Source: Eledone cirrhosa
Taxonomy: Eukaryota
Reading direction: 5' to 3'
Assembly (NCBI GenBank): GCA_964016885.1
Contig: OZ024748.1
Coordinates: 28,272,001 to 28,336,000 of the forward strand
DNA: 64,000 bases
The notes below the pieces were generated by a model. It saw only the letters and a program-made list of their open reading frames with translations, made no database searches and was not told where the DNA came from. Below, piece by piece: positions 16,376 through 47,892 of the stretch. The stretch's first letter is position 1. Every line of letters starts with the position of its first letter. Position numbers and translations under genes: made by a program.

Positions 16376-16428
16376 GAGATTCTTGATGATTTCTAAAGAA
16401 TGAAACAGTTCTAGTCCTGTAGAATCTC
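16376..16428 (+). ncRNA. Type I minimal hammerhead-ribozyme-like motif, family 1
   Basis: GAGAUUC-UUGAUGA-U-UUC(UAAA)GAA-U-GAAA-CAG(UUCUAGUC)CUG-UA-GAAUCUC: 7-bp helix I, helix II, helix III and a GUA site. C3U and U-U at the base of helix II are non-canonical. Confidence 0.6.
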
Positions 16429-17219
16429 ATCTATATATATATATAATATATATATATATACACTCATATATGTACATATATATATATACACTGGACAGTC
16501 CCTATTCACAGACACATTTACTGGAACTCACACAAACAACTTTAGTTACTCTCTCTCTCTCACCTGGTACACACACATACCTTCCACCAACACCCAAGAA
16601 ATAGGTGGGTGTAGGTAGGTGACATGAGAGAGAGTGGGAGGTAGATTATAGCCAACACCCTCTTTCTCTCCTCCTCCCTCCACCTGTGTGAATGTTACTC
16701 CTCTCTATAGTTCCTCTCTTACCTGACTCACATTTTTACTCCTCCCACTACTCATTCTAATACCACCCCTCTATCACTGCAGGCTCCAGCAAACTTTAGT
16801 CTCCTCCTCCTTCTCTTCCAACTCCACTCCTTCCCCTTCACTCCCTGTCATTCTATGTGTATGTCTGTCTGTCTATCTCTCTTCCTATACCTTGCTGTTT
16901 ATGTTTCTCACCCCCCCCCATTTCCCCTCCTCTCTCTTTGTCATTCTGTATCTGTGTGTCTCTAGTGTTTACCCCTACCAAGTTCTTCCTGACTGACGAT
17001 GGCTGTAGTGGGGGATGGTGGAGGTGTTGATGGTGATGATGTGTGTGGGATATTTCCTCTCCTAGATACATACAACCTTCTCATTCAATACATCCACCTT
17101 ATTCACCCACCATCAGTCTTTAGAAAACACATCACATCACTGCCATCATCTCTCAGCTTGGCACCACCAAATATCACACACACACACACACACACACACA
17201 AACATGGATACATAAGTCA

Positions 17220-17255
<36 letters not shown>

Positions 17256-17495
17256 TCATAAAACCTCACAAGCCACAAACAACTTTTTTTTTCTTTTTAT
17301 ATCATCATCAGCCAGCAACTGACAAGCAGCACCATCATCATCATTTTCATCATCAATAATGGTCTGTAATTGCCGCTCTCACTTCAATCACTACCACCAC
17401 CATCTCTCACCATAGTACATCAAGCCTTAAATCTCTGCACCTTTACTGACATCACATCATCACCCACTCGGTCACATATTGGTCTCTCTTCCTCA

Positions 17496-17554
<59 letters not shown>

Positions 17555-18116
17555 ACTTCTTCCACCCCCCTGACGGAACCTCCTCTGTGTGATTGCCTCC
17601 ATCTGCTAAAAATAGCAGCCAAATTACATGCCGCTTCTTCTATGCTGACATGGGGGTTGGACTATCTTTAAAAATGATAAAACTAGATACACCTTTTAGA
17701 AAGGAGGGGATGGTCATGGTTAGAATATCTTTGTTCATAGGTCTGCTCAATCCGGTAGGGGGGTTGCTTTGGTGTTGAAACTAACAACAACAGTAACAAC
17801 AAAAATATTACCAACCAGCACTAAGACCATTCTCATACTATACACTCCATCACAATCATCATCACATCTTCACTAAGAACCTACACCACTATCACCTCTA
17901 AGATAAGCATCATCATCATCATCACACCTTTACTAGCATGACCAACATTCAGTGGAGGTAAAACATCAACAAGAACCTGTGTGCCAGACTCTAACAACAC
18001 CCACTGACCCCTCTCCACTTCTGTTTCCCCCCACCCTCACACCTGTATGATGATTCTAGAAAGTCTCCAGAATGGTGATCTGTTGCTTGACTGGGTTCAA
18101 TTTCTTCTCTATTCAG

Positions 18117-18350
18117 ACATTAACAACAACAACAACAACATCAGCAACAAGAAAGGTGCAACATCATCATCATCACCAACAGCAACAGCACCAGATACTA
18201 CTATGACGATGACAAAGGGGGGAGAAGGTGATGGTATTGTTGGGGTAAAGGAGGAAGAGGAGGAAAATATTGAGGAGTACCTTAAAAGAAGTGATACAGC
18301 TGTCATTTACCCACAGCCTGTCAGTGAACCAGATGAAGATGACACTGGAG
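18117..18350 (+). CDS. zfh1: ZEB/zfh1 exon with conserved N-terminal motif IEEYLKRSDTAVIYP
   Basis: Acceptor TTTCTTCTCTATTCAG and donor G|GTAAAT, phase 1/1. The peptide closely matches vertebrate ZEB2 IEEYLQRSDTAIIYPE (recalled). Confidence 0.9.
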
Positions 18351-19280
18351 GTAAATCTACTTACCTATCTACCTATTTACTTGCCTATGTCTATCTGTCC
18401 TATCTACCTATCTTTATCCACCTATATCTATCTACTCTACCTTTTTTTTTTATCTCTCTACCTGTCCATCTACCTATCTATCTATCTATCCCTACATATC
18501 CACCTATCCATCTATTTGTTTCTTCCTGATGGTCCTACAGTTTTTGTTGTTTACTGTCCCAAACCAGCTCCCGTTATAGATATCAAGCAGATATCTATAT
18601 GTATAATTAAATGGGATTACCCCACCACATTAATATATCAAAGTATCTATCCAGTGTCTTTTTTTGATTTTTTTTTTTTTGTTTTGTTTGAAGCCCATTG
18701 TGTGGTGTGAAGAATATTTCAGAATATATCTAGCATGTGTGACTATACTCCACTCTTTGACTGATGATATCAATAGTGATGGTGATGTTGATGACTTTGT
18801 ATGGCAGGCTGCCTGTCTGTGTTTATGTTTGTGTTGCGTGTATGAGATAGATGTGCTTTGAATGTTGTGCTGATATTTAGCCCCAGGTCAGCCTTCATTG
18901 AACACACCTATGATCAAATGTATTCCAGTTATAACCATTGTTTTTTTATATATATATATCTTGGGCTACATTGTCTAAAACAGTGATAGGTTATGATTTG
19001 AGGGCTGCCAGGCTCTTTGTTGGCTTGTATGTGTGTGTGTGTGTATATATATATGTGTGTGTGTGTATGTATATATATATATATGTGTGTGTATGTATAT
19101 ATATATGTGTGTGTATGTATATATATATATGTGTGTGTGTATGTATATATATATATATATGTGTGTGTATGTATATATGTGTGTGTGTGAATATGTATGT
19201 GTATATATATATATATATGTGTGTATGTATATATATATATATGTGTGTGTGTGTGTATATATATATATATGTATATATAT

Positions 19281-19920
19281 ATATGTGAAAAAATGGGGAG
19301 AAGAATACTGCAGGTTGCACATGGATAACATGTTATAAAATGAGTCCCTCATCAGTGATTTGCCAACAATCATAGATATTTCATTGCATTAAAAATCATA
19401 TACTTCACGTTGGTGCAATAATAACTAAATTAAGTTATTAGGACAATTAAAACGCGTAAAGCGAGTGAGACAAGTAAACAACAAAGAGAAAAGCTAACCG
19501 TAGATAGGAAGAGACACAAGCTACATAGTTATTCTGTCAGCATAAGCTGGGTGAATATATGAGCACGTAGAAAATAGACCTTTCGAGATGAAATCAATGT
19601 AAGAAAGAAGGAAGTTGTTTTCGTCGCGAACGGGGTGAAGTGAGAAGGGGAGAAACAGTGAGTGAGTGAGTGGAAGTGTGAGGAAGAGGTCAGTAGAGAG
19701 AAAGTGTTAACTGACATGACAGAGGGGGCGAAAGAAAGTAAGAGAAACAGAGAGAACAGTGAGAGAGAGAGAGAAAAACAGAATCGCAGTTTAGATAAAT
19801 ATATGTGAAAAAATGGGGAGAAGAATACTGCAGGTTGCACATGGATAACATGTTATAAAATGAGTCCCTCATCAGTGATTTGCCAACGATCATAGATATT
19901 TCATTGCATTAAAAATCATA
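19281..19920. mobile_element. Element with near-identical 120-bp direct repeats (19281-19400, 19801-19920), Penelope pseudo-LTR-like
   Basis: The repeats are 520 bp apart with one visible mismatch. Each carries CTGATGA on the minus strand, and the element sits in AT/GT microsatellite. Confidence 0.6.
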
Positions 19921-20064
19921 TATATATGTATATGCGTGTGTATGTATATATGTATATGTGTGTGTATGTATGTATATATATGTATGCATATATATACATG
20001 TGTGTGTGTGTATATGTATGTTTATATATGTATGCATATATGTGTGTATATATATATATATATA

Positions 20065-20413
20065 TCATCATCATCATCATCATCATCTCATTTTACGTCC
20101 ACTTTTCCCTGCTTGCAAGGGTGGGACGGGAACTGATTCTGGCTTGATTTCTACAGCTGGATGCCCTTCCTAACACCAACCTCAGTTACAGTGAGTGCTG
20201 GGTGCTTTTTTGCTGTGGCACCTCCACGACCACTTTGCAGTGGAATGATAGGGACCCAAGTTCTTATCATCTCATTTCTACAGCTGAGTAAACTGGAGCA
20301 ATGTGAAATAAAGTGTCTTGCTCAAGGAAACAACACATCACCCGGTCTGAGATTTGAACTCACAACCTTTTGATTGCAAGGCCAATGCTCTAACCACTAA
20401 GCCATGTGCCTCC
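20065..20413 (-). mobile_element. Full-length tRNA-derived CORE-like SINE family B
   Basis: A box TGGCTTAGTGG, B box GAGTTCAAATC, CORE-like CCTTGAGCAAGACACTT...CAGTTTACTCAGCTGTAGAAATG, (GAT)n tail. Confidence 0.88.
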
Positions 20414-20426
20414 ATTAAAAAATTAA

Positions 20427-20546
20427 ACGCTTACGGCACCTAGGGTTCCCAAGCGGTCACCCATCTAAGTACTAACTAGGCTCGACGTTGCTTAACTTCG
20501 GTGATCGGACGAGATCCAGTGTTTTCAGCGTGATATGGCCGTAAAT
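20427..20546 (-). rRNA. 5S rRNA, full-length dispersed copy (gene or young pseudogene)
   Basis: The minus strand reads ATTTACGGCCATATCACGCTGAAAACACTGGATCTCGTCCGATCACCGAAGTTAAGCAACGTCGAGCCTAGTTAGTACTTAGATGGGTGACCGCTTGGGAACCCTAGGTGCCGTAAGCGT (120 nt). It is followed by a T6 tract. Confidence 0.92.
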
Positions 20547-20548
20547 AA

Positions 20549-20624
<76 letters not shown>

Positions 20625-20656
20625 ACACATATATTATATAATAATATTGAGTAAAA

Positions 20657-21004
20657 TGATAGGAGGCCGGACAGGTTAAATTCCTTCATAATTTTATTTC
20701 TGCAAACACTACACATTTCAGTGGCGGCCATGTTATGTATGAACTTGGTGATGTCATCAGGTTCATAATAGTTATATACCAAAGGAATGATGTTAAATGC
20801 ATTCCAAGAGGCTTTAAGGAGGAAAAACAGAAGAAAATAATGTTTTTTGTGTGTGTGTGTGGGGGGGGGGGGGGGTTCACTTAAAGGCGGTCATGGTAGC
20901 CCGTTGTTGTCAGTTGGGCTGTATATGCAATATACATCTGATGATGTCACCAGGTGCATAAACACAAATATGAAAGAATTCAACCTGTCTGGTCTCCTGT
21001 CATA
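20657..21004. repeat. Diverged inverted repeat with CTGATGA in both arms
   Basis: ATGATAGGAGGCCGGACAGGTTAAATTCCTTCATA versus TATGAAAGAATTCAACCTGTCTGGTCTCCTGTCAT. CTGATGA-RTCACCA occurs at about 20760 (-) and 20938 (+). Confidence 0.7.
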
Positions 21005-21019
21005 CTATTATATATATTT

Positions 21020-21760
21020 AACTCTGTGGTGACCCTTTGGAGCTTGGAATCATCTGCGAAGATTCTTACGTTACTGTGCTTGATGATGCCAGTAATGTCA
21101 TTAGTGTAGATGATGAAAAGAAGTGGGCCCAACATAGTGCCTTGTGGGACGCCACTGCTGACTTTGGCAGGGCTTGATTTTACTCCTTCGACTACAACAT
21201 GCTGGGTTCTGCCTGTCAGGAAACATTTGATCCACGGTAGTAACTTTCCAGAGACACCAACGTTGGATAGTTTTTTCAGTAGAATCTTATGATCAAACCT
21301 GTCGAAGGCTTTACTGAAATCAAGGTAGATGACAGCAGTGTTGGAGCCCTCTCCCAAGGCTCTCAAAACATCGTCAAAGTGATGCAGGAGCTGCGTTAGG
21401 CAGTCCCTTCCATTACGGAACCCATGTGGGTTGGAGTTCAGCAGGCCGTTGCTTTCAAGAAAGTGGGTTATTCGTGATCTCACTACGTCTCTCAAATACC
21501 TTGATAATATGAGAGGTGAGTGAGATCGGATGGTAGTTCACTGCAAGGGAGTTATTTCCCTTTTTGAAGACTGGGACAGAAAGTTTTCAGGAATATAGCC
21601 AGTATCCAGTCAGTTCCTCCACAGATTAGCAAGAGGAGATGCAAGTTGGTGTCAACACACCTTCAGGACACAGGCAGGGAACCTGTCGGGGCCTACTGCT
21701 GAATTGTGTTTAATTTTGTTTATTGCCGCTAAGACATTAGGGGCGCCAAACATTATGTCT
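21020..21760 (-). mobile_element. Degenerate CR1/L2-like LINE reverse transcriptase fragment
   Basis: HGFRNGRDCLTQLL, VIYLDFSKAFD, SGVPQGTMLGPLLFIIYTND and IFADDSKL, with frameshifts upstream. Confidence 0.88.
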
Positions 21761-21939
21761 GATATAGTGTGTTGGGGATTAACATCACTGATACAGCCCA
21801 GATCGGCCATATCAAGATTGCTGAAAACAGAGTAGTATTGTTTAAGCAAAGAATCGCTACTTATACCCTTAACGGGATCTTCTGAAACTTATCGAGCCCT
21901 CTTTGGATTTTAGTCTTCACATTTATTATTATTACTATA

Positions 21940-22334
21940 TACGAGGGTAATCCCAGAAGTAAGGTCTCCAAAGCGAGGGGGACACAGAGAAACTTTGTAC
22001 AGCTGTTGGCAACACTGTTGTGATAGGTGCTTCCTTCACTCCCAAACAAGCATGCGCGCGCTTCGTTGGGATGCTCAATTTTGGCTTGGCAGCCGCTGAG
22101 AATGGAGCTCCCGTTGAACGCTACCACCAAGTGCGAATTTCGCGCAGTTATTATATAGAGGGCAATCCCAAAAGTAAGGTTTTTTTCCAAGGAAAACATG
22201 CGTAAAGATTGGCGGATCACTCTGGATGCTCTCTGCATTTTAGTTCCTGAGGTTTCCCGAAGCACCACCCACAGGATTTTAACAGAAAAGTTGCAATATT
22301 GGAAGGAGACCTTACTTTTGGGATTGCCCTCGTA
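21940..22334 (+). mobile_element. Internally deleted mariner element with about 30-bp TIRs and TA target sites
   Basis: TIRs TACGAGGGTAATCCCAGAAGTAAGGTCTCC and GGAGACCTTACTTTTGGGATTGCCCTCGTA. Transposase N-terminal remnants CEFRAVI and RITLDALCILVPEVSRSTTHRILTEKL. Confidence 0.85.
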
Positions 22335-22341
22335 TATATAT

Positions 22342-22457
22342 ATAGGAAAAAGTATGACCCCGACGGCAGAGCTCAAGCCGTTTCGACTGCTATTTCTGGA
22401 ATGAAATAGCCGTCGAAACTGCTTGAGCTCTGCCGTCGGGGTCATACTTTTTCCTAT
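22342..22457. repeat. Near-perfect palindrome (55-bp arms, 6-nt loop) made of two inverted hammerhead 3' halves
   Basis: Each strand reads GAAAC(G/T)GC-TTGAGCTCT-GCCGTC-GGGGTC. Two mismatches between the arms. Confidence 0.85.
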
Positions 22458-22533
22458 TTCCCACTCTACTACCCTAAGTATTGAGTACTCTGGTGCGTTA
22501 TGCTCCATCTGGTTCTTTACCACAATTCCTTTG

Positions 22534-22572
<39 letters not shown>

Positions 22573-22684
22573 CATGTGTGTGTGTATATGTAAAATTTAA
22601 GTTCTATGTATATGTTTATGTATTTTTAAAGAAGGTGCATTGCTTAGTGTTTATGGTTTTCGTCCCTCAGTCTTAGGGTGGTAC

Positions 22685-22744
22685 AGTGGTTAAATCAGCG
22701 TTCTAAATAGCTTGCATGCTATTTAGAACGCTGGTTTAACCACT
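22685..22744. repeat. Palindrome with about 28-bp arms
   Basis: AGTGGTTAAATCAGCGTTCTAAATAGC versus GCTATTTAGAACGCTGGTTTAACCACT. Confidence 0.85.
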
Positions 22745-23443
22745 TTACTTCCCTCCGAAGAAGAGATATTATCTCAAAAATTAAGGATATTTAAATAAAT
22801 TTAAAGTAAAAGACTAATTGTCAACAATATCTTTTGCATTTATATTCTATATCCATACCTGCATTGTTTTGGCTTTACAAATACACAGGTTTATACCCCA
22901 TTACACAATGCTTCAAGTGAACTATAACTTCCTCCATATATATATATATATCATCATCATCATCATCATCATCGTTTAATGTCCATCTTCCACGCTAGCA
23001 TTGGTTAGATGGGAGTTGTGCCACTTGAGGCAAGGTTGGTCGGGTGACCGTGCCTCGCTCGTATAGGACTATCTTGCAGTCTTTCTACGGCTGGATGCCG
23101 TATATTATATATAATTCTGGTGGCAGTAGTGGAGGTGGTAGTGATAGGTGTCACTTGGTTTCAGTGAAGACTATTAATTCATATATATTAATAAATGGAA
23201 ACTATCTTTATAAAACCATATTTATTTTATTATATATATTTCATTTCATGATTATTCCTGATTACTTAACACCTGTTCAATTTACCTGTTGTCCAGTTAC
23301 GCCTGTCAGGTTACTGTTGCAAGTTGGTTGCATTTACCTGATGGTTATACCTGTCATACCTGGTGGTTATACCTGTCACCTACCTGAAGGTTACTGGTTG
23401 TATCTCAGTTCTACCTATTTGAGATAAGCTGGAAAGTAGTGAT

Positions 23444-23585
23444 TGTGGTGGCAGTGGTGGTGGTGGTGGTAGTGGTGGTGGTGGTGGTGGTAGTGGTGGT
23501 GGTGGTGGCAATAGTGGTAGTGGTGGTGGTGGCGGTGGCAGTAGTGTTGGTGGTGGTGGTGGCGGCAGTAGGGGAGGTGGTAGTG
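23444..23585. repeat. (GGT)n-rich simple repeat
   Basis: Directly visible trinucleotide run. Confidence 0.9.
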
Positions 23586-24060
23586 ATAGGTGTTAGTTGG
23601 TTTCAGTGAAGACTGTTAGTTTAGTTGAATGTTCTATTACTTTTTTTCTGTCTATCTCACTCTCTCTTTTACAGTTTCTATCTTTTTCTTTTTGTCTGTT
23701 TCTCTTTCAGTTTCTCTCTCTATCTCTATCTCTCTCTCTGTCTCTCTCTCTCAACAATATGGATGTTTCATGGCTGCCATATTGACTGAGACAGACAGTA
23801 CAATAGATACATTTATACCTGTGGTGGTTTCATGTTAGTGATTGGTGTGTCATCCCTTCCCCCCCCCCCCCATCACACACACACACTCACACATGCACAC
23901 CTACACATGCAGCTAGACATGTACACACACTCACATCTTATAAACACATACTTACTTAGGTGTGTGTGTGTACATATTTACTTAACATATACCTACACAA
24001 GTACACGTTTCTTGATTAGGTGTGTCTATGTATACATATGTACTTACATTTAAAGAATAT

Positions 24061-24443: not shown

Positions 24444-24537
24444 GTAAGTTATTCCGGGTTCAATCGGGGGTAAACACAGTAAGGTACTCAATACAAAGCG
24501 GAGTATAAATGTTTTAATATAGAAAAGCTTCTACAGT

Positions 24538-24586
24538 GCTTCTTGATGATTTCTCCCGAATGAAACAGTTCTAGTCCTGTAGAAGC
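24538..24586 (+). ncRNA. Hammerhead-like motif, family 1, second copy
   Basis: GCUUC-UUGAUGA-UUUC(UCCC)GAAU-GAAACAG(UUCUAGUC)CUGUA-GAAGC. Enclosed by a 25-bp inverted repeat (24512-24536 / 24577-24601). Confidence 0.6.
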
Positions 24587-24635
24587 TTTTCTATATTAAA
24601 ATATATATATATATATGTGTGTGTGTATATATATA

Positions 24636-24687
<52 letters not shown>

Positions 24688-28154: not shown

Positions 28155-29179
28155 AGTAGCGAAGGGTAACCTGGAAAGCAGGGCATGCAGTCCAATCGCC
28201 ATGGCGGAAAGTGGGGCTGTGCAGCCTTACCTCCCCCCCAATTCCCTCTAAATGACCCTCCCGGTCAAAGCCGCATGTAGTGTTATCTAGTGTGTGTGTG
28301 TGTGTGTTATCTTTTTATGTGTCTACGATTTAGTAAGCAGCCAAAATTCTGCTTGCTTCAACCGACGCAATTGATCAACTCAAGATTCTATAACGCGTGC
28401 ACGTACCCTTCGCTCCTGCATGGGGTACAGTCCATATATGGGCATGCAGTCAAAACAAAAAAAGCAAAAGTATCAAATCAAACAATCCTAAGAATTTGTT
28501 GTTTTTCATGTCTGTCACGGGAATGGTCAATGCTTTTGGGATGTGTGTACATTGTAAAATTCCTTCATATTGATGAGGGTGGTGGGTGGGGGCTGGACTG
28601 GCCTGTAGAACAAAGGGGAGGGACTAAGATGACATTCCGACCTGTGGGTGCCAAGCAGGTTAAGAGAGAAAATCTTTACAACTATCTCTAATAGGGGTAA
28701 GAAAGTAAATTCAGCATATGAGAATTAAGGATGGTTGTTAGAGTGAAATTAAGTATGCCAAGTTTAACACTTAGCTAGAGCAAAGCATATAGATATTAAT
28801 ACTAAATAAATTCCTAATAAATAAAATTTAGTTATCAGTTACTCTAATGCACTAGAACAGCACCACAATACAGTAATTTACTAGTATATTCTTTTATAAT
28901 GATACCCCCCCAACTATGGCTATGTGTTCGGCCGATTCTATGTATATTTAACAAGAGTGAAAATTTACCGGGTTAACCTAAGGAAGAATAGAAACTGATT
29001 ATAATAGTGTAGATAAGTAAAGATCTACCTAAGTGTAATTAGAGTGTGTAACTAATGAAGAAAAAAGAAAAAATTCTACTTCTATCTAAGTATGCTTGAG
29101 GCTTCCTCTATCTTAGTTCGTAAATAGGAAAGAGAATCAGCCGAGATCAACCCACCTGTGTCATGAGGGGGTTTGAAGG

Positions 29180-29460
29180 TAAGATATGTCCTATGTATTC
29201 TGTGTTTACACGAGGTAACAAGTTCATCCTTTTTGTTTAAGAGTTGGTCCTTTGCAAACAGCATTTGGATCGTTTCCTCCGACGGCATCTCCCGAGTAAG
29301 ATTTCGCCTTGGAAAGTATGCTTCAACTTAGATGGTAGGTGATAATGTTGTCTTGGAGGTCCCAAATATGGCCAGAAAGAGCTGTTGCGTGTCGCCGGGC
29401 CAGGTTTCTAAATGTGTGTTGGTGTTGGTAATACCGGGTCTTAAAATCACAGGCAGTTGT
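29180..29460 (-). mobile_element. Penelope-like element, GIY-YIG endonuclease C-terminal remnant
   Basis: FKTRYYQHQHTFRN...ATALSGHIWDLQ and LLNKKDELVTSCKHR match the Penelope-like element endonuclease C-terminal pattern. Confidence 0.8.
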
Positions 29461-32670: not shown

Positions 32671-34186
32671 CAAACATAGTTGGTATCTCTTGAGTATGAT
32701 TAACTCAAAATAATGTAAATGATAAAGGGTTAAATTGTTGTAGTAGCCCGAATTTTCAACTGGGAAAAAAAAAAGGATTTAGCACGTTAGCTTATAACCA
32801 TATCAAGGATGTATTAGGGTGACAGCTACGTAGGTCAATTAAAAGTGCCTGAAAAGAAAAAGTCTCAAAACTTCTTGACTATGGTTTTGGAATTTTTTTG
32901 TGATATGCATTCTCCAGGTCATAATTGAAATGAATGCAGAAATTAATAAAATGATTTAAAGTATCATATTTGGTTTTTCACTTGAATATATCTATCTATA
33001 TAGAGGGAGAGTGAGGGGGGGCGTGCTCATGTATATGTGTGAATGAATCTATGTGTATAGACACAGCACTAATTTGATGATGACTTAAGTTTCAAACACC
33101 TGGTATATGACATTGATAACAGTCGGATTAGCAAGACTGATAAAACTAAGTCCTGCTGGTGCCACTCTGTTTCTCTCATACATATATAGATTAGCTGTAA
33201 ACAGTAACTGTGGTACCTTTACTCCTGCTACAACCTATCCCTTTGTCCTCATCACTTCATCAACACCAAAAATAATAAACATGTGACCTATGACGTCACA
33301 TATCAAGGGATTTTTGTTTTTTTCTTCTCTTTTAATTTCAATTTCAAGAAATGTGAAATGGTTTTGTTTATTATGGCTTCTTTTAATATGGCTTTTTTTT
33401 TTATATTTACTACTCAAACACAAATAGAAAAATAATCAGGAAAAAAACTTCTTTTTTTTGTTGCAATGTTGGCTAGAATACAGTATTTGTTCTGGTTCTC
33501 TGTGTTCTGATTTCAAATCCTGCCACTGTCAACTTTTCCTTTCATCCTTTCAAAGTTGATAAAGTACCAGTTGAATACTTGGGATGATTCTGCCTCTATA
33601 TTCTCTGTCTCTCTCCTTTCACTCTCTCAGAAATTGACTGTGATCCAACCTCTATAGGGGTGGCCTCTGCCAGATTTAAAATGTCCAAGATATGCTGCAT
33701 GTAACAGCGACACCCTTATGGCTTCACTGGGGAGCTAAGGGCTCATCGCATAACTTGTTGATTCAAGACATTCCAGCAATTACCATCCTGTCTATCTATT
33801 CAATGTATTTTCCTGTTTTAAGACATTAGGGTGTAATTTGAGACAGAGTTGGCTATTATTTCTATTACCAACTGTAGGAATCACAGACCAAATAGGGAGA
33901 CATTATGTAGTCACTCAATTTACTAGAATTAGCAGCCAAATCTCCTTCAAATCACATATTGTCTTTAATAAAGAAGTATACATTGAACAACATAGTTCCT
34001 AATGCATAAAAAGGCAGAATAAATAGGTTTTCTGGATCAGAGTTTTCCTGGGATTAAACAATAACACACTGAATTAAATGAAATGACATGCTAATGAAGG
34101 AGCTTCTTATGTGGTTGCTAAACCTGCTAGACATAGCAGTCAAATAATTGTTTCTTAGTTATTTCATTGTTTTGTTTTTCTTTCAG

Positions 34187-36504
34187 ATTCAGTGAACAAT
34201 ACCGATGATGAATATCTCTTGAAATGTATGCATTGCAAGGAGTCTTTCACCCAAGAATCTCGGCTGCACTCTCACATTAAGACGATGCATTCGGAGAAAT
34301 CTTTGAAATATATGTGTTCAAAATGTGAAGAGACGTTCCCACTGAAATCCCACCTTGATAACCATATGGAGCTGCATTTGGCCACATCTCAGACCTGTAC
34401 CGTCTGCAAGAAAACATTTGCTAACGTCTACCGGCTCCAGCGCCATATGATCAGCCATAACGAGAGCACGTCGCTACGGAAATTCAAGTGCGATGAATGT
34501 GGAAAGGCTTTCAAGTTCAAACATCATCTCAAGGAACACATTCGGATCCATTCTGGAGAGAAGCCATTTGAATGTTCCAACTGCCGGAAACGGTTCAGCC
34601 ACTCGGGTTCCTACAGCAGTCACATGACCTCGAAAAAATGCTGGGTCGTGAACATGAAGAGTCGCCGAATCGACCATAATGGTAATGCCAGCGACTCGGT
34701 TCCTTCATTTCCTCCAGCCCATAAAAACGGACACAGCCAGTCTTTGCAAAAATCCTCAGGCAGTCTTCCACGACAGTTAATTACATATGATAACCCCAAT
34801 TCTAGCCTTCCGAAATTCTTCACTAATAATCCTTCATTCATCTATTCCATGTACCCTCAAAAGGAGAACCTTTCCGACAGAATCACACCGCTAACCAACC
34901 AGACTATTGCACATTCTAATCCCTCAAAAGTAACTTTCAATCAGAAGCCTTCTCTAACGAAAGGTATCCAACTCTCCTCTGACATGAACTCAAGCACGCA
35001 GCCTTTATCGATGGTAGTCCTGAAGAAATCTGATAGCCCTGTCTTACCTGTGCAGCCACAAGTGACCACTCCATCCCTCGATGAACGAGTCATCAAAACT
35101 GAGCCATCAGACCAGTCGGAGGTCATCAAAGTCTTAAACACCATCAACATTAAGAAGGAAAACTCCAAAGATGGTTTTCCTGTAACCGACGTCATGCAAG
35201 AGAAGCACTCCAACTCCCCGCCTCCATCCAACTGTGTAGATGCCAAAGACGTTGATCTCACATGCCGATTTTGTGCATCAGCCTTCCGCAGCCCTGTGGC
35301 ACTGCACCAACACGAACGCTATCTATGCAAGTCTAATAAAGATATTGTGCATAGAGTTACCAACTTGGAGGTGACGTCGTGCAACAGTCCCAGCAGCACC
35401 ACTTCCTCGTCAGAAACGATCAAACGAGAGACGCCAAATGGCAGTCTAGAAAACGGCACAGACGAGGAAGAAACTGAAGAAATTTTTAAGGAGGAAAACC
35501 TCGACAAGAAATTCCGCATGCGTTCCATGATTAGCGATGACCAACTGCAGGTTCTGAAAAAATATTACCAGCTCAACCCTCGACCTCGTAAACATGACCT
35601 GATAAAAATCGGCAATGAAATTGGTTTCTCGAAACGCGTGGTGCAGGTTTGGTTTCAGAACATGAGAGCACGAGATCGTAAGAAAGGTAAAAATGTCCCA
35701 TATTTCCCCGCCATGGCTCGTTTCAAACAGCAGGAGGACTCTGCGTCGACATCTTCCACATGGAAAGAGCCGGTGAAATCCACCAATTCAGCCTACATCC
35801 CTGTGGTTCCACATTTTAATAATTCTGTCCAAATTCCTTCTGGAATTCCACCGTCATCATCGCCTTCATTTCCAGCTCATTCACACACAAAAGTAAACGG
35901 GCAGTTTAGTGCTGCCACCGAAAACCGTGATGCCTTGTTCAATAATAACCAGGACCAACCTTTAGACCTAAGTCTGAAAAGAGAACCCCCACGAGCTCAC
36001 AGTGGCCACAAACCAGTCAGTAGTAATAACTACAACTCACATCCTCCACCTGCTGCTCCTAGTCAGAATTTTGATAATCAAGTACTAAACCTAAGTTGCC
36101 GATCTCCTATCAGTGTCAAGCAAGAACATGTAGATGGCGCTAGCTCTGCTCCAAGTAGCTTTCAGGAATCTGCTCTGTATAAATATATGAAGCAAGAAGG
36201 GATGATTGTTAATAAGCCAACCCTTAACCAAGACCTGGCCTCATTAGGCAAACTCTCCCATTCCAGTCCCATTCCAGCCGCGATGCAAGAATCTCTTACA
36301 TCACCTTACCGATCCAGTGGCAAGTCTGGTGCCAACATGGAGAATGAAAATAAACCCAAGACACCAAAGTCTGAACTAAAGCAACCTGATGATTCATCGA
36401 TATCCAGCGATGGTTCTATGGACAGTATCAGCAATCGCTCCCTCGTTATTGATGAGAGTAAATTCCACAATGACAAGAGTGATGGCGAGTGTCTTTCCGA
36501 TGAA

Positions 36505-36538
<34 letters not shown>

Positions 36539-36681
36539 CCGAAGATGATTCTCCTCCGAGACTGTCAAATGGTTTGTCCGATAGTAATCTTACTCCGTCA
36601 AAGATGAGAGAAGACAACCATCAGACAAATCCAGATGGCACTAAAAAACCAAAAAGATTACGCAAAAAGTCTTGGAAACAG
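34187..36681 (+). CDS. zfh1: ZEB/zfh1 large central exon: five N-terminal zinc fingers, central finger, homeodomain (about 35509-35688), CtBP motif PLDLS (35959-35973)
   Basis: ZEB signature fingers [48 protein letters not shown] and homeodomain helix 3 RVVQVWFQNMRARDRK. Acceptor TTTTTCTTTCAG, donor CAG|GTTGGT (phase 0). Confidence 0.97.
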
Positions 36682-37049
36682 GTTGGTGTTTCTTTGATTA
36701 CTATAATTGTTGTTATTGTTGTTGCTGTTTTTTTTACTAATTACTAACCAAGATATAGCTTTGTCACGTTGTAGATATGATATGGTATATATTATTTTAC
36801 TTTACAAGGAAAACGTTAATAGTGAGGGACTTCAAAGTTTCGCTAGTGGTCAATCACATCGACCATTTTTCCTTGTAAAATAGGATCTATACTATATTAT
36901 ACACATATGTATTGAGTGCTCACTCAATGTTTGATTGTTATTATGTCTGATTACATACAAAATACATCCATTGATATACATCAGGTTATCTCATAAGTAA
37001 TATTTTTTTATTTTAGGTTTTAAAGAGATAAAAAAAACACAAGTTACTA

Positions 37050-40370: not shown

Positions 40371-40550
40371 GATTGGCAGTATCGGTAGAGGGCCGGACGC
40401 CATGCTTTGCAGAGTTACGGCCCTTTATGGTCTGAGTTCAAATCCTGCCGAGGTTAACTTTGCCTTTCATCCTTACGGGGTCGATAAAATAAAGTACCAG
40501 TAATACACTGGGATAATTGCTGGCCTTGTGCCAATAGTAGAAACAATTAT
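40371..40550 (+). mobile_element. SINE family A copy
   Basis: Same as the copy at 1726. Confidence 0.85.
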
Positions 40551-40740
40551 GTAATGGAGTTGCTTAACAACACTTAAAACATTTTATAAATCAAAATATT
40601 AAAACTTCATAAATATTTTATCCACTCATAAGAATTTCAAAACCATGCCATCTAAACTTGTGTTGATTAACTACCTAGGCTAATTTCCCAAACATAAAAT
40701 AGGAGTGAGGGCATGGGAATCATCTTATATTCAGATGAGC

Positions 40741-42400
40741 TTATATCATTATCTAACAGCCTGGTACTCCCTATCATGGTATATCATTATCTAACAGCCT
40801 GGTACTCCCTGTCATGGTATATCATTATCTAACAGCCTGGTACTCCCTGTCATGGTATATTACTATCTAACAGCCTGGTACTCTCTGTCATGGTATATCA
40901 TTATCTAACAGCCTGGTACTCCCTGTCATGGTATATCATTATCTAACAGCCTGGTACTCCCTGTCATGGTATATCATTATCTAACAGCCTGGTACTCCCT
41001 GTCATGGTATATTACTATCTAACAGCCTGGTACTCCCTGTCATGGTATATTACTATCTAACAGCCTGGTACTCCCTGTCATGGTATATCTATCTAACAGC
41101 CTGGTACTCCCTATCATGGTATATCTATCTAACAGCCTTGTACTCCCTGTCATGGTATATTACTATCTAACAGCCTGGTACTCCCTATCATGGTATATCT
41201 ATCTAACAGCCTGGTACTCCCTATCATGGTATATCTATCTAACAGCCTGGTACTCCCTATCATGGTATATCTATCTAACAGCCTTGTACTCCCTGTCATG
41301 GTATATCTATCTAACAGCCTGATACTCCCTATCATGGTATATCTATCTAACAGCCTTGTACTCCCTGCCATGGTATATCTATCTAACAGCCTTGTACTCC
41401 CTATCATGGTATATGTATCTAACAGCCTTGTACTCCCTGTCAGGGTATATCTATCTAACAGCCTGGTACTTCCTATCATGGTATATCTATCTAACAGCCT
41501 GGTACTCCCTGTCATGGTATATCTATTTAACAGCCTGATACTCCCTATCATGGTATATCTATCTAACAGCCTGGTACTCCCTATCATGGTATATCTATCT
41601 AACAGCCTTGTACTCCCTGCCATGGTATATCTATCTAACAGCCTGGTACTCCCTATCATGGTATATGTATCTAACAGCCTTGTACTCCCTGTCAGGGTAT
41701 ATCTATCTAACAGCCTGGTATTTCCTATCATGGTATATCTATCTAACAGCCTGGTACTCCCTGTCATGGTATATCTATTTAACAGCCTGATACTCCCTAT
41801 CATGGTATATCTATCTAACAGCCTGGTACTCCCTATCATGGTATATCTATCTAACAGCCTTGTACTCCCTGCCATGGTATATCTATCTAACAGCCTGGTA
41901 CTCCCTATCATGGTATATGTATCTAACAGCCTTGTACTCCCTGTCAGGGTATATCTATCTAACAGCCTGGTACTCCGTCATGGTATATCTATCTAACAGC
42001 CTGATACTCCCTATCATGGTATATCTATCTAACAGCCTGGTACTCCCTCTCATGGTATATCTATCTAACAGCCTGGTACTCCCTATCATGGTATATCTAT
42101 CTAACAGCCTTGTACTCCCTGCCATGGTATATCTATCTAACAGCCTGGTACTCCCTATCATGGTATATGTATCTAACAGCCTTGTACTCCCTGTCAGGGT
42201 ATATCTATCTAACAGCCTGGTACTCCGTCATGGTATATCTATCTAACAGCCTGATACTCCCTATCATGGTATATCTATCTAACAGCCTGGTACTCCCTAT
42301 CATGGTATATCTATCTAACAGCCTGGTACTCCCTCTCATGGTATATCTATCTAACAGCCTGGTACTCCCTGTCAGGGTATATCTATCTAACAGCCTGTAT
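40741..42400. repeat. 36-bp minisatellite (TATCTAACAGCCTGGTACTCCCTATCATGGTATATC), about 45 units; first units are 38 bp
   Basis: Directly visible periodicity. Confidence 0.97.
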
Positions 42401-43574
42401 TAATATTTATTTACTCTTTTTAACTAATTTTTTCTATTTTTTTTTATTTTTTCAATAATTCTTGTTGCATCCTGCCCACTCCCTTGTTATTTTTTTCATT
42501 TTCATGATTAACATATATTAACATATCCTTCTTGTATATTCTCATCTATTGCTTTTGTGTGTTTGTCCTGCAGCATACAATGTGGTCTGACCTACTCCTT
42601 TGACCCTTCCTTCCACTATCACTGACAGCTTTTCTCAACATCACTACACCATCCTCACCACACACACTCACACCCATGCACCCACCACACATACTCATGT
42701 CCCCTACCACGCACGCACATTCTTAGCTGCTGCCTCCTTGTGAAGTGGTTGATGATGGGAAGGGCATCCAGCCATGAAGGGCTTGCCAAACAAAGTGTTG
42801 GGAGGAGCCACAGTTGTGTCAAAGATATGACAGCCTCTTCTGTGCACTAGATAGAACGAGAAACCGTACTTAAATGAGACGCAGATCTGTGGCCTCTTTG
42901 GGAGATTAGTAGCCCTGCTTCAGTCCTGACTTGGTCTATGTAGACCTGTTCAAACCTTGCCAGCAGAGAAAGTGGACATGAAAATGATGATGATATATTA
43001 AACACACATGCACACACACATATGTCTTACACTGCTTTAACTAACAGAGTGTATTAACAAAAACTGATATTTTCATTTTCTTCTCTTCTAAGCCATTTAA
43101 ATTAGAAATATCTCTTCCTACCATTATACATATATGTATTCACAAAACAAAACAAAATCAACTCTTGATTGGGAGTTCAGGTAGACAAACTTGATTTATT
43201 GACCCTGTTTAACACCAATCACCCTGTTGTTGAATGGATTTAATCTATCACCCAGTTTAACACAACCACATAGCACTTGGCTGCCTTTAGCAGAATCCTC
43301 TCTGTATTGCAAGCATTTTGGTCAGGTTCTCCGGTTTATCAATTTCCTCTTAAACAAAACAACCCCCCTTTTTTGTGTTTACAAAACAACCCCTTTTTTC
43401 TGTCTACAAAATGACAACTGAATCCCTTTTTTTTTTTTTTTACTTAGCTTTTATACCTGCTTCGTTCTTAAGACCTTCAGGATATATATGAAATCTCAGG
43501 ACTGGCCATTTCACCTTCTCCCTAAAATATATGATGGCCTCTTCTACTTAGGGAGGAGAAACTTAATACCATCA

Positions 43575-44300
43575 TCATTAATGGTTTCTTATTTAGACAC
43601 AAGGCCAGCAATTTTGGAGTAGGGGGAGTCGATTAACTTGACCCCAGTGCATGACTGGTATTTTATTTTATCAGTCTCATAAAGATGGAAGACAGCAAAC
43701 CTCGGCAGGATTTCAACTCAGAACGTAAAGTGATGTAACTAAATGCTGCAAAGCATTTGGTCCAATGATCTACCAATACTGCCAATTTACTGCCCTTATA
43801 ATAATAATAATTGTTTCTACGTTAGGCACCAGGCCAGCAATTACCCAGTGCATTACTGGTACTTTTTGTTTCTACTTTAGACACAGGCCAGTAATTTGAA
43901 GGGGAGGGGGAATAATAATAATAATAATTGTTTCTACTTTTGGCACAAGGCCAGCAATTATCCCAGTGTATTACTGGTACTTTATTTTATCAACCCCGTC
44001 AAATAAAGTACCAGTAATTCACTGAGATAATTGCTGGCCTTGTGCCAAAAGTAGAAACAATTATTTTGGCACAAGGCCAGCAATTATCCCAATGTATTAC
44101 TGGTACTTTATATAATAATAATTGTTTCTACTTTAGGCACAAGGCCAGCAATTACCCAGTGCATTACTGGCGTCCGACCCTCTACCGATAATGCCAATCC
44201 ACCGCCCTATTTATATAATAATAATGGTTTCTAATTTAGGGTCTTTATTTTACTGGCCCAAAAAAGAAGTATGAAAGGCAAAGTTGGCGTTGGCAAGATA
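43575..44300 (-). mobile_element. Cluster of stacked SINE family A fragments, including a fold-back of two tails
   Basis: Repeated TTGTTTCTAC-GGCACAAGGCCAGCAATTA-CCAGTG-ATTACTGG units. Inverted pair at about 43924-44064. Confidence 0.85.
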
Positions 44301-44824
44301 TTGTTTCTAACATAGACACATGGCCAGAAATTTGTCAGTCAGTCATATTATTCCCAATATGTCACTGAAACCCACACATGTGTGAGCCATTACTTCATGC
44401 ATAACTCTTTTTGTAGCCTACCATAGTAGATCTTATTACGAAGATGATGACTTACATGTAGAACTGTCCAGTTCCTAGACTGTCCAATAGTATGTGTTGT
44501 CTCTATTGAACCTAAATCTGTGTCAGTCCAGTTGTGTAATTGTCAACTTCATTAAATACTCTCGTGTTTCTGAATTCATCCATCTTTACATTGTAGTCCC
44601 TAGTTACTGATTGCTGCATGCTGGTTGTTTATAATTTTATATATATCACTAATGTATTTTGTGTGTGTATGTTCATAGAATTGATGTTTGAATTGCATAT
44701 TGCATTAACAATATTTCTTTTTGCCTACCTGCCCACTCCCCACTGCTTTGCAAACTAACCAACGATATATTTAAAAAAGCTATTTCTAACTTTTTAAAAG
44801 AGTCTACCCTGTATTGCATGGCAG

Positions 44825-45017
44825 ATGGCATCGGAAGAAATTCAACTCGACCTTGAAGAGACAAACACGGTCGATGAAGATCACCCACACCGGAAAAAAC
44901 GCCGATCTTGGAAGAATCACCGAGTTGACGTTGAGGAAGGCTTATACGCTTGTGATCAGTGTGATAAGATGTTTAGCAAGCAAAGTTCGCTTGCTAGGCA
45001 TAAATATGAACATTCAG
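44825..45017 (+). CDS. zfh1: ZEB/zfh1 exon with first C-terminal cluster finger ([24 protein letters not shown])
   Basis: ZEB signature SSLxRHKYEH. Acceptor GGCAG in phase 0, donor G|GTAAAC in phase 1. Confidence 0.95.
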
Positions 45018-46157
45018 GTAAACACATTTGTTGACCTAGATAACCATCATCAAAATATAAAATGTATGATATGTAGTGTTTGGGTGAGGGAGTAGGGTTA
45101 GACAGGTGGAATGGTGGAGGAGATAGTTGGGCAGGTGGTGGTGGATGAGGAGATAAGTTGGGTAGGTGGGGCCAGTTCTTAGTGTAAAGACTCTTTCAAT
45201 AATATTAGATCACCCCTGGTATTTAACATTTACATATCTCTCTGATGAATCAAAAGTTTCTATATGGTCACTTGACCTGCTAAAAATAACAACCAAATTT
45301 CCCTCAAATTACACCCTATTGTCTTTAAAAACATGGTAGGGTTACATTGGGCATACAAAAAATTGAAAGGGTTGGGATGGTCATAACTGGAAAGGGACCT
45401 TTGATTATAAGATCTACTTGAAGAAAGGATTGACCAGGAACTAAACAGTACATTCTTATCTGAGAATTCTACCATTTATTATTGATGGTCAGGTCAACTT
45501 TAGAATTTGAAAAGGTGAATGGATTTAGGTTGTCTTTTAGGAGGGAATTGGTATTAAGGAAACAAATAATATTTATTGGTAGCATGTGTGTGTGTGTGTG
45601 GGGGGGGGGGGCTGAATAGGTGGCACTTTTTATCCATGTCAAATTTACATTGAAGAAAAGAATAAAAACAAGTTTTGAACTTTTAACCTTTAGCTGACAT
45701 TAATTTCCCCTTCCCACCTCCCAGTCAACAAGTAGTTAATTTGTGTGATAGGTAAGTAGGTAGGTGAGAAATGGTAAATTGGACTTGTAAATGGAATTCT
45801 TTGTGTAAAAAGAACAAAAAATGTTCCCTGCTACTTTATTTTATCTTTCTAGCCAATGTTGATTGTTTCAGTTACTTTTTGAATATATTTTGGGGGCAGG
45901 TAGGTGAGACATGGTAAGATGGGTCCTTAAATGTCTCAGTAAAATTCCTTGCTGTGTCTTTGTGCTGTTTGTATATTTCCCTTTCTGTGTCCCCTGCCCT
46001 ACTCTACCCCAGTCAACAAGTAGTTTAATTTATGATAGTTAGATAGCTAGGTGAGAATGGTAAGATATACTGGATTAGCTGTGGTGAAGGGAGTTAGTTG
46101 TTCTTTGTGTAAAATTCTTTGCTACTTATTATTCCAGGGCTTTCTAGATTATTCAAG

Positions 46158-46212
<55 letters not shown>

Positions 46213-46218
<6 letters not shown>

Positions 46219-46409
46219 GAATAGCTTTCACCGTACTTTTGACTAAAGAAATTTTAGTCTGATAATGGGGTTTAGAAACCTCATAAATGGAAAAAGATGA
46301 GTATTGATGTACATGTACGTCAATACTCATCTTTTTCCATTTAGCTGAGGTTTCTAAACCCAGACTAAAATTTCTTTAGTCAAAAGTACGGTGAAAGCTA
46401 TTCTATTTT
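46213..46409. repeat. Long spacerless palindrome, arms about 95 bp, centred on GTACATGTAC
   Basis: AAAATAGAATAGCTTTCACCGTACTTTTGACTAAAG... is mirrored with only small indels. Confidence 0.92.
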
Positions 46410-46532
46410 CTAATTTCAAACCTGCTCACTGTTTCAAAACATACTTGTCATATATATATATTGGCTTGAATAATCTTGAATAATATTATGGAATGCTGTT
46501 GGCTTTTTGCTACAATGTTTTCTATACCTTTC

Positions 46533-46596
<64 letters not shown>

Positions 46597-46641
46597 GAGA
46601 GATAGATAGATAGTTTATTCAAGCCTATATATATATATAAC

Positions 46642-46797
46642 AAAAAACAGCATATATGTAAAAAAACAAAGGTTCACTTCTCATCACTAATCTTTCTCCT
46701 CTTCAATATCTCTTTTTCTGTGTGCTTATTGTATGAATCAGTAGATTAGTGATGGAGAGTAAACCTTTGTCTTGTTACATATATGCTGTTTTTTTTT
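46642..46797. repeat. Inverted repeat, arms about 50 bp
   Basis: AAAAAACAGCATATATGTAA...TCATCACTAATCT versus AGATTAGTGATG...TTACATATATGCTGTTTTTT. Confidence 0.82.
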
Positions 46798-47226
46798 TGT
46801 TTTTGTAAGATTCAGAAGTGGAGTAAACACACTTGTGTACTGAGGGTACTTGTGTATGTCTCCAAATGCAGGATTTGAACTGAGTTTATATAGTTGATGG
46901 AATAAACCATAGTTTTTTTTTGTGATGGGGAGAGTTTATCGTATCCCTTCCTCACTTTTATCTCTGTAGGGTTAGTATTTGTCTTTTGCAGATGCAAAGT
47001 TCCAAAAGGCTGTTGTTCTGGGGATGGGAGAATGTCTAACTTAGGGGATGAGACAGTTTTTCTGGTGAGCAAAATAGTGGGAATTGAATTTCCCGATAAA
47101 TCCAATTGGACCAGCATTTCTAGATCTTGTTCATTTGTAAGTTGGTGGAACATGTCAATTACATAATAAATGTTGATCTTCTAACTGTGATGTTGTCATA
47201 TTCATGGTACTTATATTATATTATAT

Positions 47227-47385
47227 ATTGGCAGTATCGGTAGAGGGGCGGACGCCATGCTTTCCAGCAGAGTTACGTCCCTTTACGATCTGAGTTCAAA
47301 TCTGGCCGAGGTTGACTTTGCCTTTCATCCTTACGGGGTCGATAAAATAAAGTACCAGTAATGTACTGGGTAATTGCTGGCCTTG
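47227..47385 (+). mobile_element. SINE family A copy, 3'-truncated
   Basis: Same head and core as the copy at 4468. Confidence 0.85.
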
Positions 47386-47697
47386 GTTTTGGTTTATTAA
47401 AATCCGTAATGTTCATTTCACTGAGAACTATCAGTTACGACAGCCTGAGCTTCTCAAAAGTTAAACTTGTAAAATAATGAAATATTTTGAAAAAAACCCT
47501 TAGATTTGGAAAAGGTTTATTTTTTTTAATACAGGGGGCTGCCAGACGTGGGTTGTTATTTCCTCAACAGTCGGCCCCTGATATATAATGCTCTGGCTTA
47601 CACTTTTATACAGGCTATTGAGCGCTTTCCTTTATCTACTTCACAACCAACTGACCATTAAGTGGTCCGCACATCCTTGTTCGGTTAACCCCTTACA

Positions 47698-47750
<53 letters not shown>

Positions 47751-47846
47751 TCCCGGGTTCAATCAGGGGTAACCACAGTAAGGTACTCAATACAGAGTAG
47801 AGTATAAACAATATGTATATATTCCTTTCATTCAAAGGAAATCGTC

Positions 47847-47892
47847 ATTCCTGATGATTTACTTCGAATGAAACAGTTCTAGCCCTGTAGAA
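47847..47892 (+). ncRNA. Hammerhead-like motif, family 1, third copy (canonical CUGAUGA)
   Basis: AUUC-CUGAUGA-UUUACUUCGAAU-GAAACAG(UUCUAGCC)CUGUA-GAA. Shares its upstream flank (47752-47808) with the copy at 24538. Confidence 0.55.

What the first reader, a model, noticed from the sequence alone, without database searches (positions are those of the whole stretch)
16376..47892. Dispersed family of atypical type I hammerhead ribozymes with covarying helix I, all sense to the ZEB pre-mRNA
Seen: three copies (16376-16428, 24538-24586, 47847-47892) share (C/U)UGAUGA, a 12-nt helix II module, GAAA, helix III CAG/CUG with loop UUCUAG(U/C)C and a GUA site. Helix I differs but stays paired (GAGAUUC/GAAUCUC, GCUUC/GAAGC, UUC/GAA), and loop 2 varies freely (UAAA, UCCC, CUUC), as expected under RNA structural constraint. 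Known: Penelope-like retroelements and retrozymes carry type I hammerheads, often minimal and active as dimers via a palindromic loop 3 (here CUAG). Atypical features are C3U in two copies and U-U instead of the usual R-Y pair at the base of helix II. Inference: a possibly undescribed cephalopod ribozyme variant marking short non-autonomous elements. If active, the copies could cut intronic ZEB RNA.
Basis: partly seen in the sequence, partly recalled or inferred. Interest (0 to 1): 0.75.

Follow-up and report, generated by a model that had tools for sequence, protein, structure and literature searches.

The report
Truncated Hydra-Penelope ends with hammerhead
The three motifs are real hammerhead-ribozyme sequences, but they are cut-short ends of a very abundant Penelope-like jumping gene of the known Hydra group; these copies are damaged and likely cannot cut the ZEB RNA, and across the genome such short copies start at one spot that is likely the element's capped transcription start.

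Summary
The motif is real and the coordinates are right. It is not a separate ribozyme element. The pattern occurs 24,420 times in the genome and sits in both pseudo-LTRs of a Penelope-like retroelement with an intact 713-aa RT/GIY-YIG protein carrying the Hydra-clade motifs. The 'atypical' U·U is found in 14 of 25 published Hydra hammerheads. C3U is decay: 791 of 24,420 copies. Helix I covaries between subfamilies at two pairs; the third window variant is decay, not covariation. All three window copies are predicted to misfold in context, so cutting of ZEB RNA is unlikely. One extra result: 45 of 98 copies start at the first bases of helix I, about 30 nt behind a TATA box, often with an extra G. 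This suggests copying from capped, uncut RNA. The scan noted both readings before on other DNA. Cleavage and expression are untested.

The parts
16376..16436 (+). Copy 1: short end of the Hydra-type element, subfamily A. Extra G at 16376, helix I 5' strand 16377-16382, U at core position 3 (16383), predicted cut after 16421, ends in (TA)n about 15 nt past the cut site
   Evidence: (86% to the pLTR of L172); predicted misfold with U3-A17 paired
16290..16488 (.). 39-nt direct repeats at 16290-16328 and 16450-16488 (95% alike) around copy 1, likely a target-site duplication in (TA)n
   Evidence: reading as a duplication is inference
24538..24601 (+). Copy 2, hammerhead arm: GCTTC/GAAGC helix I, U at position 3 (24543), predicted cut after 24581, ends about 20 nt past the cut site in (TA)n
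24444..24536 (-). Copy 2, inverted arm: from about 5 nt before the cut site through the tail; forms a 33-nt inverted repeat with 24577-24609 that would lock the cut site in a duplex
   Evidence: (-43.5 kcal/mol)
47848..47899 (+). Copy 3, hammerhead arm: C3 intact (47851), helix I cut down to 3 bp, A·G mismatch closing helix II, predicted cut after 47889, ends in (CT)n/(TA)n
47747..47847 (-). Copy 3, inverted arm: partial core copy (47847-47826) joined to the tail (47807-47747); the partial copy would pair with the hammerhead core
18117..18350 (+). Likely ZEB/zfh-1 exon (AVIYP motif between AG and GT)
   Evidence: the motif's link to ZEB is recalled, no Pfam hit
34159..36747 (+). ZEB/zfh-1 large exon frame: C2H2 fingers and homeodomain
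44951..49420 (+). ZEB C-terminal zinc-finger exons near 44951 and 49265-49420, which bracket copy 3
   Evidence: end coordinate approximate

Best explanation
The three motifs are hammerhead-bearing ends of a Hydra-type Penelope-like retroelement, lying as short or head-to-head pieces in TA repeats at the ZEB locus, and they are damaged and likely inactive. Shown: the full element is pseudo-LTR with hammerhead, 713-aa RT plus C-terminal GIY-YIG, 2.5-4 kb of microsatellite-rich 3' region, then a second pseudo-LTR with hammerhead. Copies end about 15-30 or about 85 nt past the cut site and very often begin at the first bases of helix I. Inferred: a TATA/initiator promoter in the pseudo-LTR starts a capped RNA at the first base of helix I. 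The element's protein nicks (TA)n and starts reverse transcription at one of two sites just 3' of the 5' hammerhead. It copies 60-130 nt of uncut RNA to the cap and adds a C opposite it; two such products are often joined head to head. The ribozyme would cut slowly, as a dimer through loop 3 or with protein help.
For: Hammerhead directly before the ORF in 16 of 18 loci picked for a long open frame, and after it in 17 of 18. Protein motifs RWR, DKT, YRDD, CxCx5C, CxxC, CxH fit the Hydra description; GIY-YIG E=2e-4. 150 scored protein matches at 94-100% identity, many in 758-codon open frames. 5' ends: 45 of 98 tail-anchored copies at -48 to -37 from the cut site, 2 between -99 and -60, 3 within 3 nt of the cut site, 16 long. 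TATA box 29-33 nt before -45 in 14 of 15 reference copies (one of the 15, L197, was read at a second copy in its locus). Where the template has C, the first 100 of 2,284 non-C copies of subfamily A show 76 G, 13 T, 11 A, and the first 100 of 1,361 in subfamily E show 59 G, 19 T, 22 A; counted by eye. In L322-L325 and L211 both arms are complete and each has an extra G. In vitro, a Poseidon element starts at two internal sites, uses uncut RNA as main substrate and needs protein for hammerhead cleavage (PMC11167929). Helix III segment: duplex -12.8 against hairpin -1.4 kcal/mol.
Against: No RNA data, so start site, cap and cleavage are untested. The control one base further in also shows much G (43 G, 51 T, 6 C of the first 100 of 2,549). 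Of 20 G cases among 30 unselected subfamily A loci, 10 can be explained by the other arm and 1 by a microsatellite, leaving 9; several of the 9 fit fold-back on helix I. In subfamily E, 12 of 19 G cases were unexplained. D. virilis Penelope has a TATA-less internal promoter (PMC2377424, passages). The GIY-YIG score (21.9) is just under Pfam's cut-off (22.6), and no Pfam RT family hit the frameshifted pieces. No tree with published Hydra proteins was built. Short-copy samples come from the first part of contig C1. Two of three window copies having U3 is unlikely at the 3.2% background (p=0.003, post hoc).
Confidence: 0.85

Rival explanations
1. Same element, but the pile-up of 5' ends at helix I comes from the new cDNA folding back on its own helix I complement and switching template, not from the RNA starting there.
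For: Some junctions run from the antisense helix I strand straight into the sense 3' strand (L078). TG or ATG before the helix, as fold-back predicts for subfamily A, is seen in L294, L298, L299, L306, L307. G is also common in the control.
Against: In subfamily E fold-back predicts T, but G dominates (59 of 100; 12 of 19 unexplained). The TATA box sits at start-site distance in all subfamilies examined.
Confidence: 0.2
2. The short hammerhead-plus-tail pieces are a self-standing non-autonomous family (SINE- or retrozyme-like) transcribed from their own copies.
For: Short pieces far outnumber long ones (82 of 98 are short; contig depth about 1000-fold higher over hammerhead and tail than over the ORF, a rough measure). 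A 3-unit, 221-bp tandem exists (L320). An unlocated one-strand excess of about 2,900 copies hints at an array.
Against: Short copies lack the upstream TATA region, have varied junctions, and match the ends of intact elements. The window copies are solitary. The L320 junction occurs only 3 times.
Confidence: 0.1
3. The window copies are active ribozymes that cut or regulate ZEB pre-mRNA.
For: All three cores are sense to ZEB; copies 2 and 3 are intronic. Copy 3 keeps C3. A hammerhead with a U·U at the base of helix II does cleave in axolotl (22% in 1 h as monomer; PMC7229834, passage).
Against: U3 in copies 1 and 2; U3 is predicted to pair with A17. Predicted share of the hammerhead fold is 0.0001, 0.003 and about 0 (the intact young copy also scores only 0.03, so this measure is weak). 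Inverted arms are predicted to trap copies 2 and 3. About one copy per 120 kb genome-wide makes three in 64 kb unremarkable.
Confidence: 0.04

Closest known systems
Hydra clade of C-terminal-endonuclease Penelope-like elements (Craig et al. 2021, PMC8557442; section 11, passages and supplement part 2 read), including Hydra-1_Obim of Octopus bimaculoides
   Same: RT plus C-terminal GIY-YIG, DKT, CxCx5C, CxxC, CxH, (TA)n targets, hammerhead near the 3' end, tail, inverted 5'-truncated arms. U·U at the base of helix II in 14 of 25 listed Hydra hammerheads. Helix III ACAG/CUGU with A at the cut site as in Hydra-1_aMil, Penelope-1_NV and Penelope-1_SK (table read by eye).
   Different: A different family from Hydra-1_Obim (its hammerhead sequence differs; proteins compared by eye only). 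RWR instead of RWK. Loop 3 is 8 nt with a palindromic centre, against 1-3 nt in the listed Hydra hammerheads. 4.7-6.3 kb between hammerheads in 15 loci, against 'generally under 3 kb'. Tens of thousands of copies.
Minimal and small-helix-III hammerheads of metazoan PLEs (Cervera and de la Peña 2014, PMC4209133; parts 1-2 of 4 read)
   Same: Type I, in pseudo-LTRs, mostly as single truncated copies, often in close opposite-strand pairs, palindromic loop 3, covarying subfamilies.
   Different: Here helix III has 4 bp plus an 8-nt loop, helix II only 3 bp, and U·U replaces G10.1-C11.1. The U3 variant in that paper is compensated (U3-A8); here U3 stands with G8.
Poseidon element PAc of Anolis (Frangieh et al. 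2024, PMC11167929; parts 1-2 of 4 read)
   Same: Two 3' end points that define a tail, AT-rich targets, uncut RNA as template.
   Different: Other clade; there the ORF starts inside the hammerhead. In the parts read, no mapping of genomic 5' ends to a capped start.
Metazoan non-LTR retrozymes (Cervera and de la Peña 2020, PMC7229834, passages; bioRxiv 10.64898/2026.07.22.740005, part 1 of 5)
   Same: Type I hammerhead, PLE ancestry; L320 is a 221-bp tandem of that size range.
   Different: The window copies are solitary or inverted pairs, not tandem arrays; no circular RNA data.

Membership tests
Hydra-clade PLE | Single ORF with RT and C-terminal GIY-YIG endonuclease | tested here: met
   713 aa from L172 with YRDD; GIY-YIG E=2e-4, 21.9 bits against cut-off 22.6
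Hydra-clade PLE | RWK motif, DKT in place of DKG | tested here: met
   IRWRAF (R for K) and SDKTK against the description
Hydra-clade PLE | CxCx5C linker; CxxC and CxH in the endonuclease | tested here: met
   CNCLNKETC, CDLC, CMH
Hydra-clade PLE | Absence of the CCHH motif, CxC motif and IFD | tested here: inconclusive
   Not seen by eye; no alignment to reference PLEs was made
Hydra-clade PLE | Hammerhead in pseudo-LTRs; insertion into (TA)n; tail and inverted arms | tested here: met
   16 of 18 before and 17 of 18 after the ORF; (TA)n ends and inverted arms; 3' ends in two groups among 243 sites
Hydra-clade PLE | Placement in the Hydra clade by RT phylogeny | not tested
   Published proteins were seen and compared by eye only
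Type I hammerhead ribozyme (element family) | Core CUGANGA, GAA, NUH around three helices | tested here: met
   69 of 71 upstream-anchored sites parsed; each core position at least 64 of 69 conserved, C3 66 of 69; one subfamily varies at N7
Type I hammerhead ribozyme (element family) | Covariation of helices | tested here: met
   2 of 13 pairs change on both sides, both in helix I (A-U/G-C, A-U/C-G); 94.8% paired, slid controls 33-48%. About two events, not 25; helices II and III do not covary
Type I hammerhead ribozyme (element family) | Self-cleavage at the predicted site | not testable with these tools
   No RNA run is listed
Functional hammerhead (window copies 1 and 2) | C3-G8 pair | tested here: not met
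   T at 16383 and 24543 with G8 kept; filed as damaged copies
Non-LTR retrozyme (window copies) | Head-to-tail tandem units of 150-450 bp, each with a hammerhead | tested here: not met
   Copies are 8 and 23 kb apart, solitary or inverted
Non-LTR retrozyme (window copies) | Expressed as circular RNA | not testable with these tools
   No RNA holder listed

The most novel reading that the evidence does not exclude
In this family the capped transcript begins at the first base of hammerhead helix I, and about half of all insertions are 60-130-nt copies of that uncut 5' end, ending in a cap-derived G. The genome then holds thousands of fossil records that Penelope-like elements are copied in vivo from uncut RNA, so the hammerhead is not needed to make the template and may act as a slow, dimer- or protein-gated switch. 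The same family may also have produced a retrozyme-like array of about 2,900 units.
Probability: 0.6. Interest if true: 0.55.

Novelty: new member of a known kind. Interest (0 to 1): 0.33.

Why it matters
As a ribozyme variant or ZEB regulator it matters little: the features called atypical are either published Hydra traits or decay. The family is useful as a young, high-copy Hydra element with many intact ORFs. The role of the hammerhead in Penelope-like elements is stated as unclear in PMC8557442. If the start-site and cap reading holds, it gives in vivo support to the in vitro result that uncut RNA is the template, and a simple test (5' RACE or CAGE at one base).

Tried and rejected
Rfam scan of the window: no hammerhead among the 150 rows shown of 225. 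Sequencing runs: no RNA holder listed; 3 of 5 listed runs were laid, all contigs of unrecorded kind, which say nothing on expression or RNA ends. Prediction that GAAACC copies carry a compensating GGTTTC strand: not borne out in 30 of 646 loci. C3U as a subfamily trait: rejected, it is spread over many loop-2 types and occurs in 2 of 69 upstream-anchored copies. Minimum-energy folding gives no support for the hammerhead fold (z from +0.17 to -1.62 in 6 sequences). First truncation run used references with inverted arms and misplaced three copies; redone, and its count of inverted arms (68 of 98) is inflated by microsatellite matches and is not used. Search for the source of the one-strand excess: the L320 junction gave only 3 matches, so the excess stays unlocated. 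No covariance model or R-scape test was run. Lünse et al. 2017 is not held; I saw only a review's account (PMC6765202, passages). Paper searches: 'hammerhead ribozyme' + 'octopus', PLE/pLTR/start site/hammerhead and Penelope-like/untemplated/cap/truncated/strong-stop listed no paper whose title or abstract start describes this family or a cap signature in PLEs; the library lacks most subscription journals and Repbase/Dfam were not available, so the family may already be catalogued. Supplements of the bioRxiv retrozyme preprint and of the other papers besides PMC8557442 were not seen and may bear on novelty.
Full report
Observation. The three motifs are at the stated places on the + strand, with predicted cuts after 16421, 24581 and 47889. 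A scan with up to 3 substitutions found no other full copy in the window. The core pattern matches 24,420 places in the 3.0-Gb genome (13,328 forward, 11,092 reverse) and the reversed control none. ZEB-type exons lie on the + strand near 18.3, 34.2-36.7, 45.0 and 49.3 kb. Copies 2 and 3 are therefore intronic; copy 1 is upstream of the first exon found.

What the motif belongs to. Among the first 30 genome hits, L016 runs from the hammerhead into a retroelement frame. Extended as L031, it is a frameshifted RT plus GIY-YIG element. A search with its C-terminal 211 aa gave 150 scored matches at 94-100% identity, many in 758-codon open frames. I fetched 18 loci with long open frames: 16 have the hammerhead directly before the ORF, 17 have one after it, and the two lie 4.7-6.3 kb apart in the 15 that have both. 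The 713-aa protein has RWR, DKT, YRDD, CxCx5C, CxxC and CxH, the marks given for the Hydra clade of Penelope-like elements (PMC8557442 section 11). That paper lists an Octopus Hydra family with a different hammerhead. No tree was built, so clade placement rests on motifs and a by-eye comparison. The window copies match the pseudo-LTR of L172 at 83-89%. Copy 1 is a lone short end with a likely target duplication; copies 2 and 3 are head-to-head pairs whose tail arm is on the - strand.

The 'atypical' features. U·U at the base of helix II is kept in 67 or more of 69 upstream-anchored copies, so it is a family trait, and it occurs in 14 of the 25 Hydra hammerheads tabulated in the paper's supplement (counted by eye). 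C3U is decay: 21,549 of 24,420 copies have C and 791 have T, the T copies are spread over many loop-2 types, and G8 is unchanged. The one trait not in the published table is the 8-nt loop 3. Its segment is predicted to pair far better as a dimer than as a hairpin (-12.8 against -1.4 kcal/mol), and in one subfamily the palindrome is longer (-15.2).

Covariation. In 52 distinct copies with authentic upstream sequence (48 anchored outside the hammerhead, 4 added by hand from older subfamilies; the sample was enriched for upstream variants), 94.8% of cells pair, against 33-48% for slid controls. Two of 13 pairs change on both sides, both in helix I. This is about two events between subfamilies; helices II and III are constant while loop 2 varies. 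So the family is under structural constraint, and copies 1 and 2 do show two true helix I types. Copy 3's type is not a third: 30 of 646 GAAACC loci show no compensating change.

Activity of the window copies. In copies 1 and 2 U3 is predicted to pair with the base at the cut site. With flanks, copy 2's cut site lies in a long duplex with its inverted arm, copy 3's core pairs with its inverted arm, and copy 1 keeps the misfold. Copy 3 also has a 3-bp helix I and a mismatch closing helix II. Folding energies are weak evidence for hammerheads (the intact young copy reaches only 0.03), but core damage and trapping point the same way. Three of three sense is 1 in 8. Two of three with U3 is unlikely at a 3.2% background (p=0.003, post hoc); selection against active sense ribozymes could explain it, which I could not test without annotation.

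Where copies start and end. Anchoring on the tail, outside the hammerhead, 45 of 98 copies from the first 24 Mb of C1 begin at -48 to -37 from the cut site (helix I starts at -45), 2 between -99 and -60, 3 within 3 nt of the cut site, and 16 run on past -100. Among 33 young copies, where divergence cannot blur the end, 15 begin in that window. Where the template has C before helix I, non-C copies mostly show G: 76 of the first 100 in subfamily A and 59 of the first 100 in subfamily E. In L322-L325 and L211 both arms are complete and each has an extra G; window copy 1 has it too. Against: the control one base in has 43 G of 100, 11 of 20 inspected G cases in subfamily A have another explanation, and fold-back on helix I can add G in that subfamily. 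It cannot in subfamily E, where 12 of 19 G cases stay unexplained. 3' ends fall in two groups, 13-30 nt (116 of 243 sites) and 83 nt or more (117 of 243) past the cut site (the latter includes copies that run on into the ORF).

Mechanism. I infer a capped RNA that starts at helix I, reverse transcription primed at nicked (TA)n and starting just 3' of the 5' hammerhead, and run-off at the cap. Templates would then mostly be uncut. This fits the in vitro work on an Anolis Poseidon element: two internal start sites, uncut RNA as main substrate, protein-assisted cleavage (PMC11167929). It differs from D. virilis Penelope, reported as TATA-less (PMC2377424). No RNA run was listed, so these steps are untested.

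Earlier scan notes. My readings were noted, before the look-ups that returned notes. Those notes report Hydra-type ends in this genome and others, a tail hairpin, and cap-ended short copies in another genome. They agree but are not independent evidence. The term 'strong-stop' came from one of them.

Verdict. A real hammerhead family in a likely uncatalogued, young Hydra-type element; the window copies are damaged ends. New member of a known kind, interest 0.33; the start-site and cap reading is the part worth testing.

Noticed in passing
genome-wide: The subfamily A motif has 5,434 forward against 2,544 reverse matches, while tail and upstream anchors are balanced. This hints at a one-orientation array of about 2,900 hammerhead units; not located.
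   Followed up: partly
L320:540-1230 (G000:C1:67880200-67882000): Three tandem 221-bp units, each hammerhead, tail, 5' region and first codons of the ORF joined back to just before the hammerhead: a small retrozyme-like derivative. The junction occurs only here. In two units helix III appears to gain a fifth pair.
   Followed up: partly
window 24475-24505 and 47775-47805 (- strand); L062-L171: The tail holds a small bulged hairpin (5-bp stem, UU bulge, 3-bp stem, variable loop; variants). A similar arrangement is visible by eye in the published coral Hydra-2_Amil end. It may mark the reverse-transcription start.
   Followed up: partly
L172:4190-6900: The full element carries 2.5-3 kb of (TA)n/(TG)n-rich sequence between ORF and 3' pseudo-LTR, so it likely spreads its own target repeats.
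   Followed up: partly
L001, L005-L007, L013, L017, L029, L194, L207, L208, L210, L212: One truncated hammerhead copy with identical flanks recurs at many loci, so it was amplified inside another repeat.
   Followed up: no
window 29169-29457 (-) and 2624-2821 (+): Remnants of an older Hydra-type ORF, 42-45% identical to the 713-aa protein.
   Followed up: no
window 20428-20546 (-): A 5S rRNA match, 101.5 bits, inside a ZEB intron next to a SINE-like repeat.
   Followed up: no
window about 10000-11600, 40700-42400, 60650-61400: Minisatellite arrays with 22-, 38/36- and 51-nt periods.
   Followed up: no
L258, L261: Copies with the 5' helix I strand of one subfamily and the 3' strand of another, a likely mismatched intermediate of the compensating change.
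   Followed up: no
run X5 (organism B): A second coded organism holds the pseudo-LTR, hammerhead and tail but no contig over the ORF part laid.
   Followed up: no
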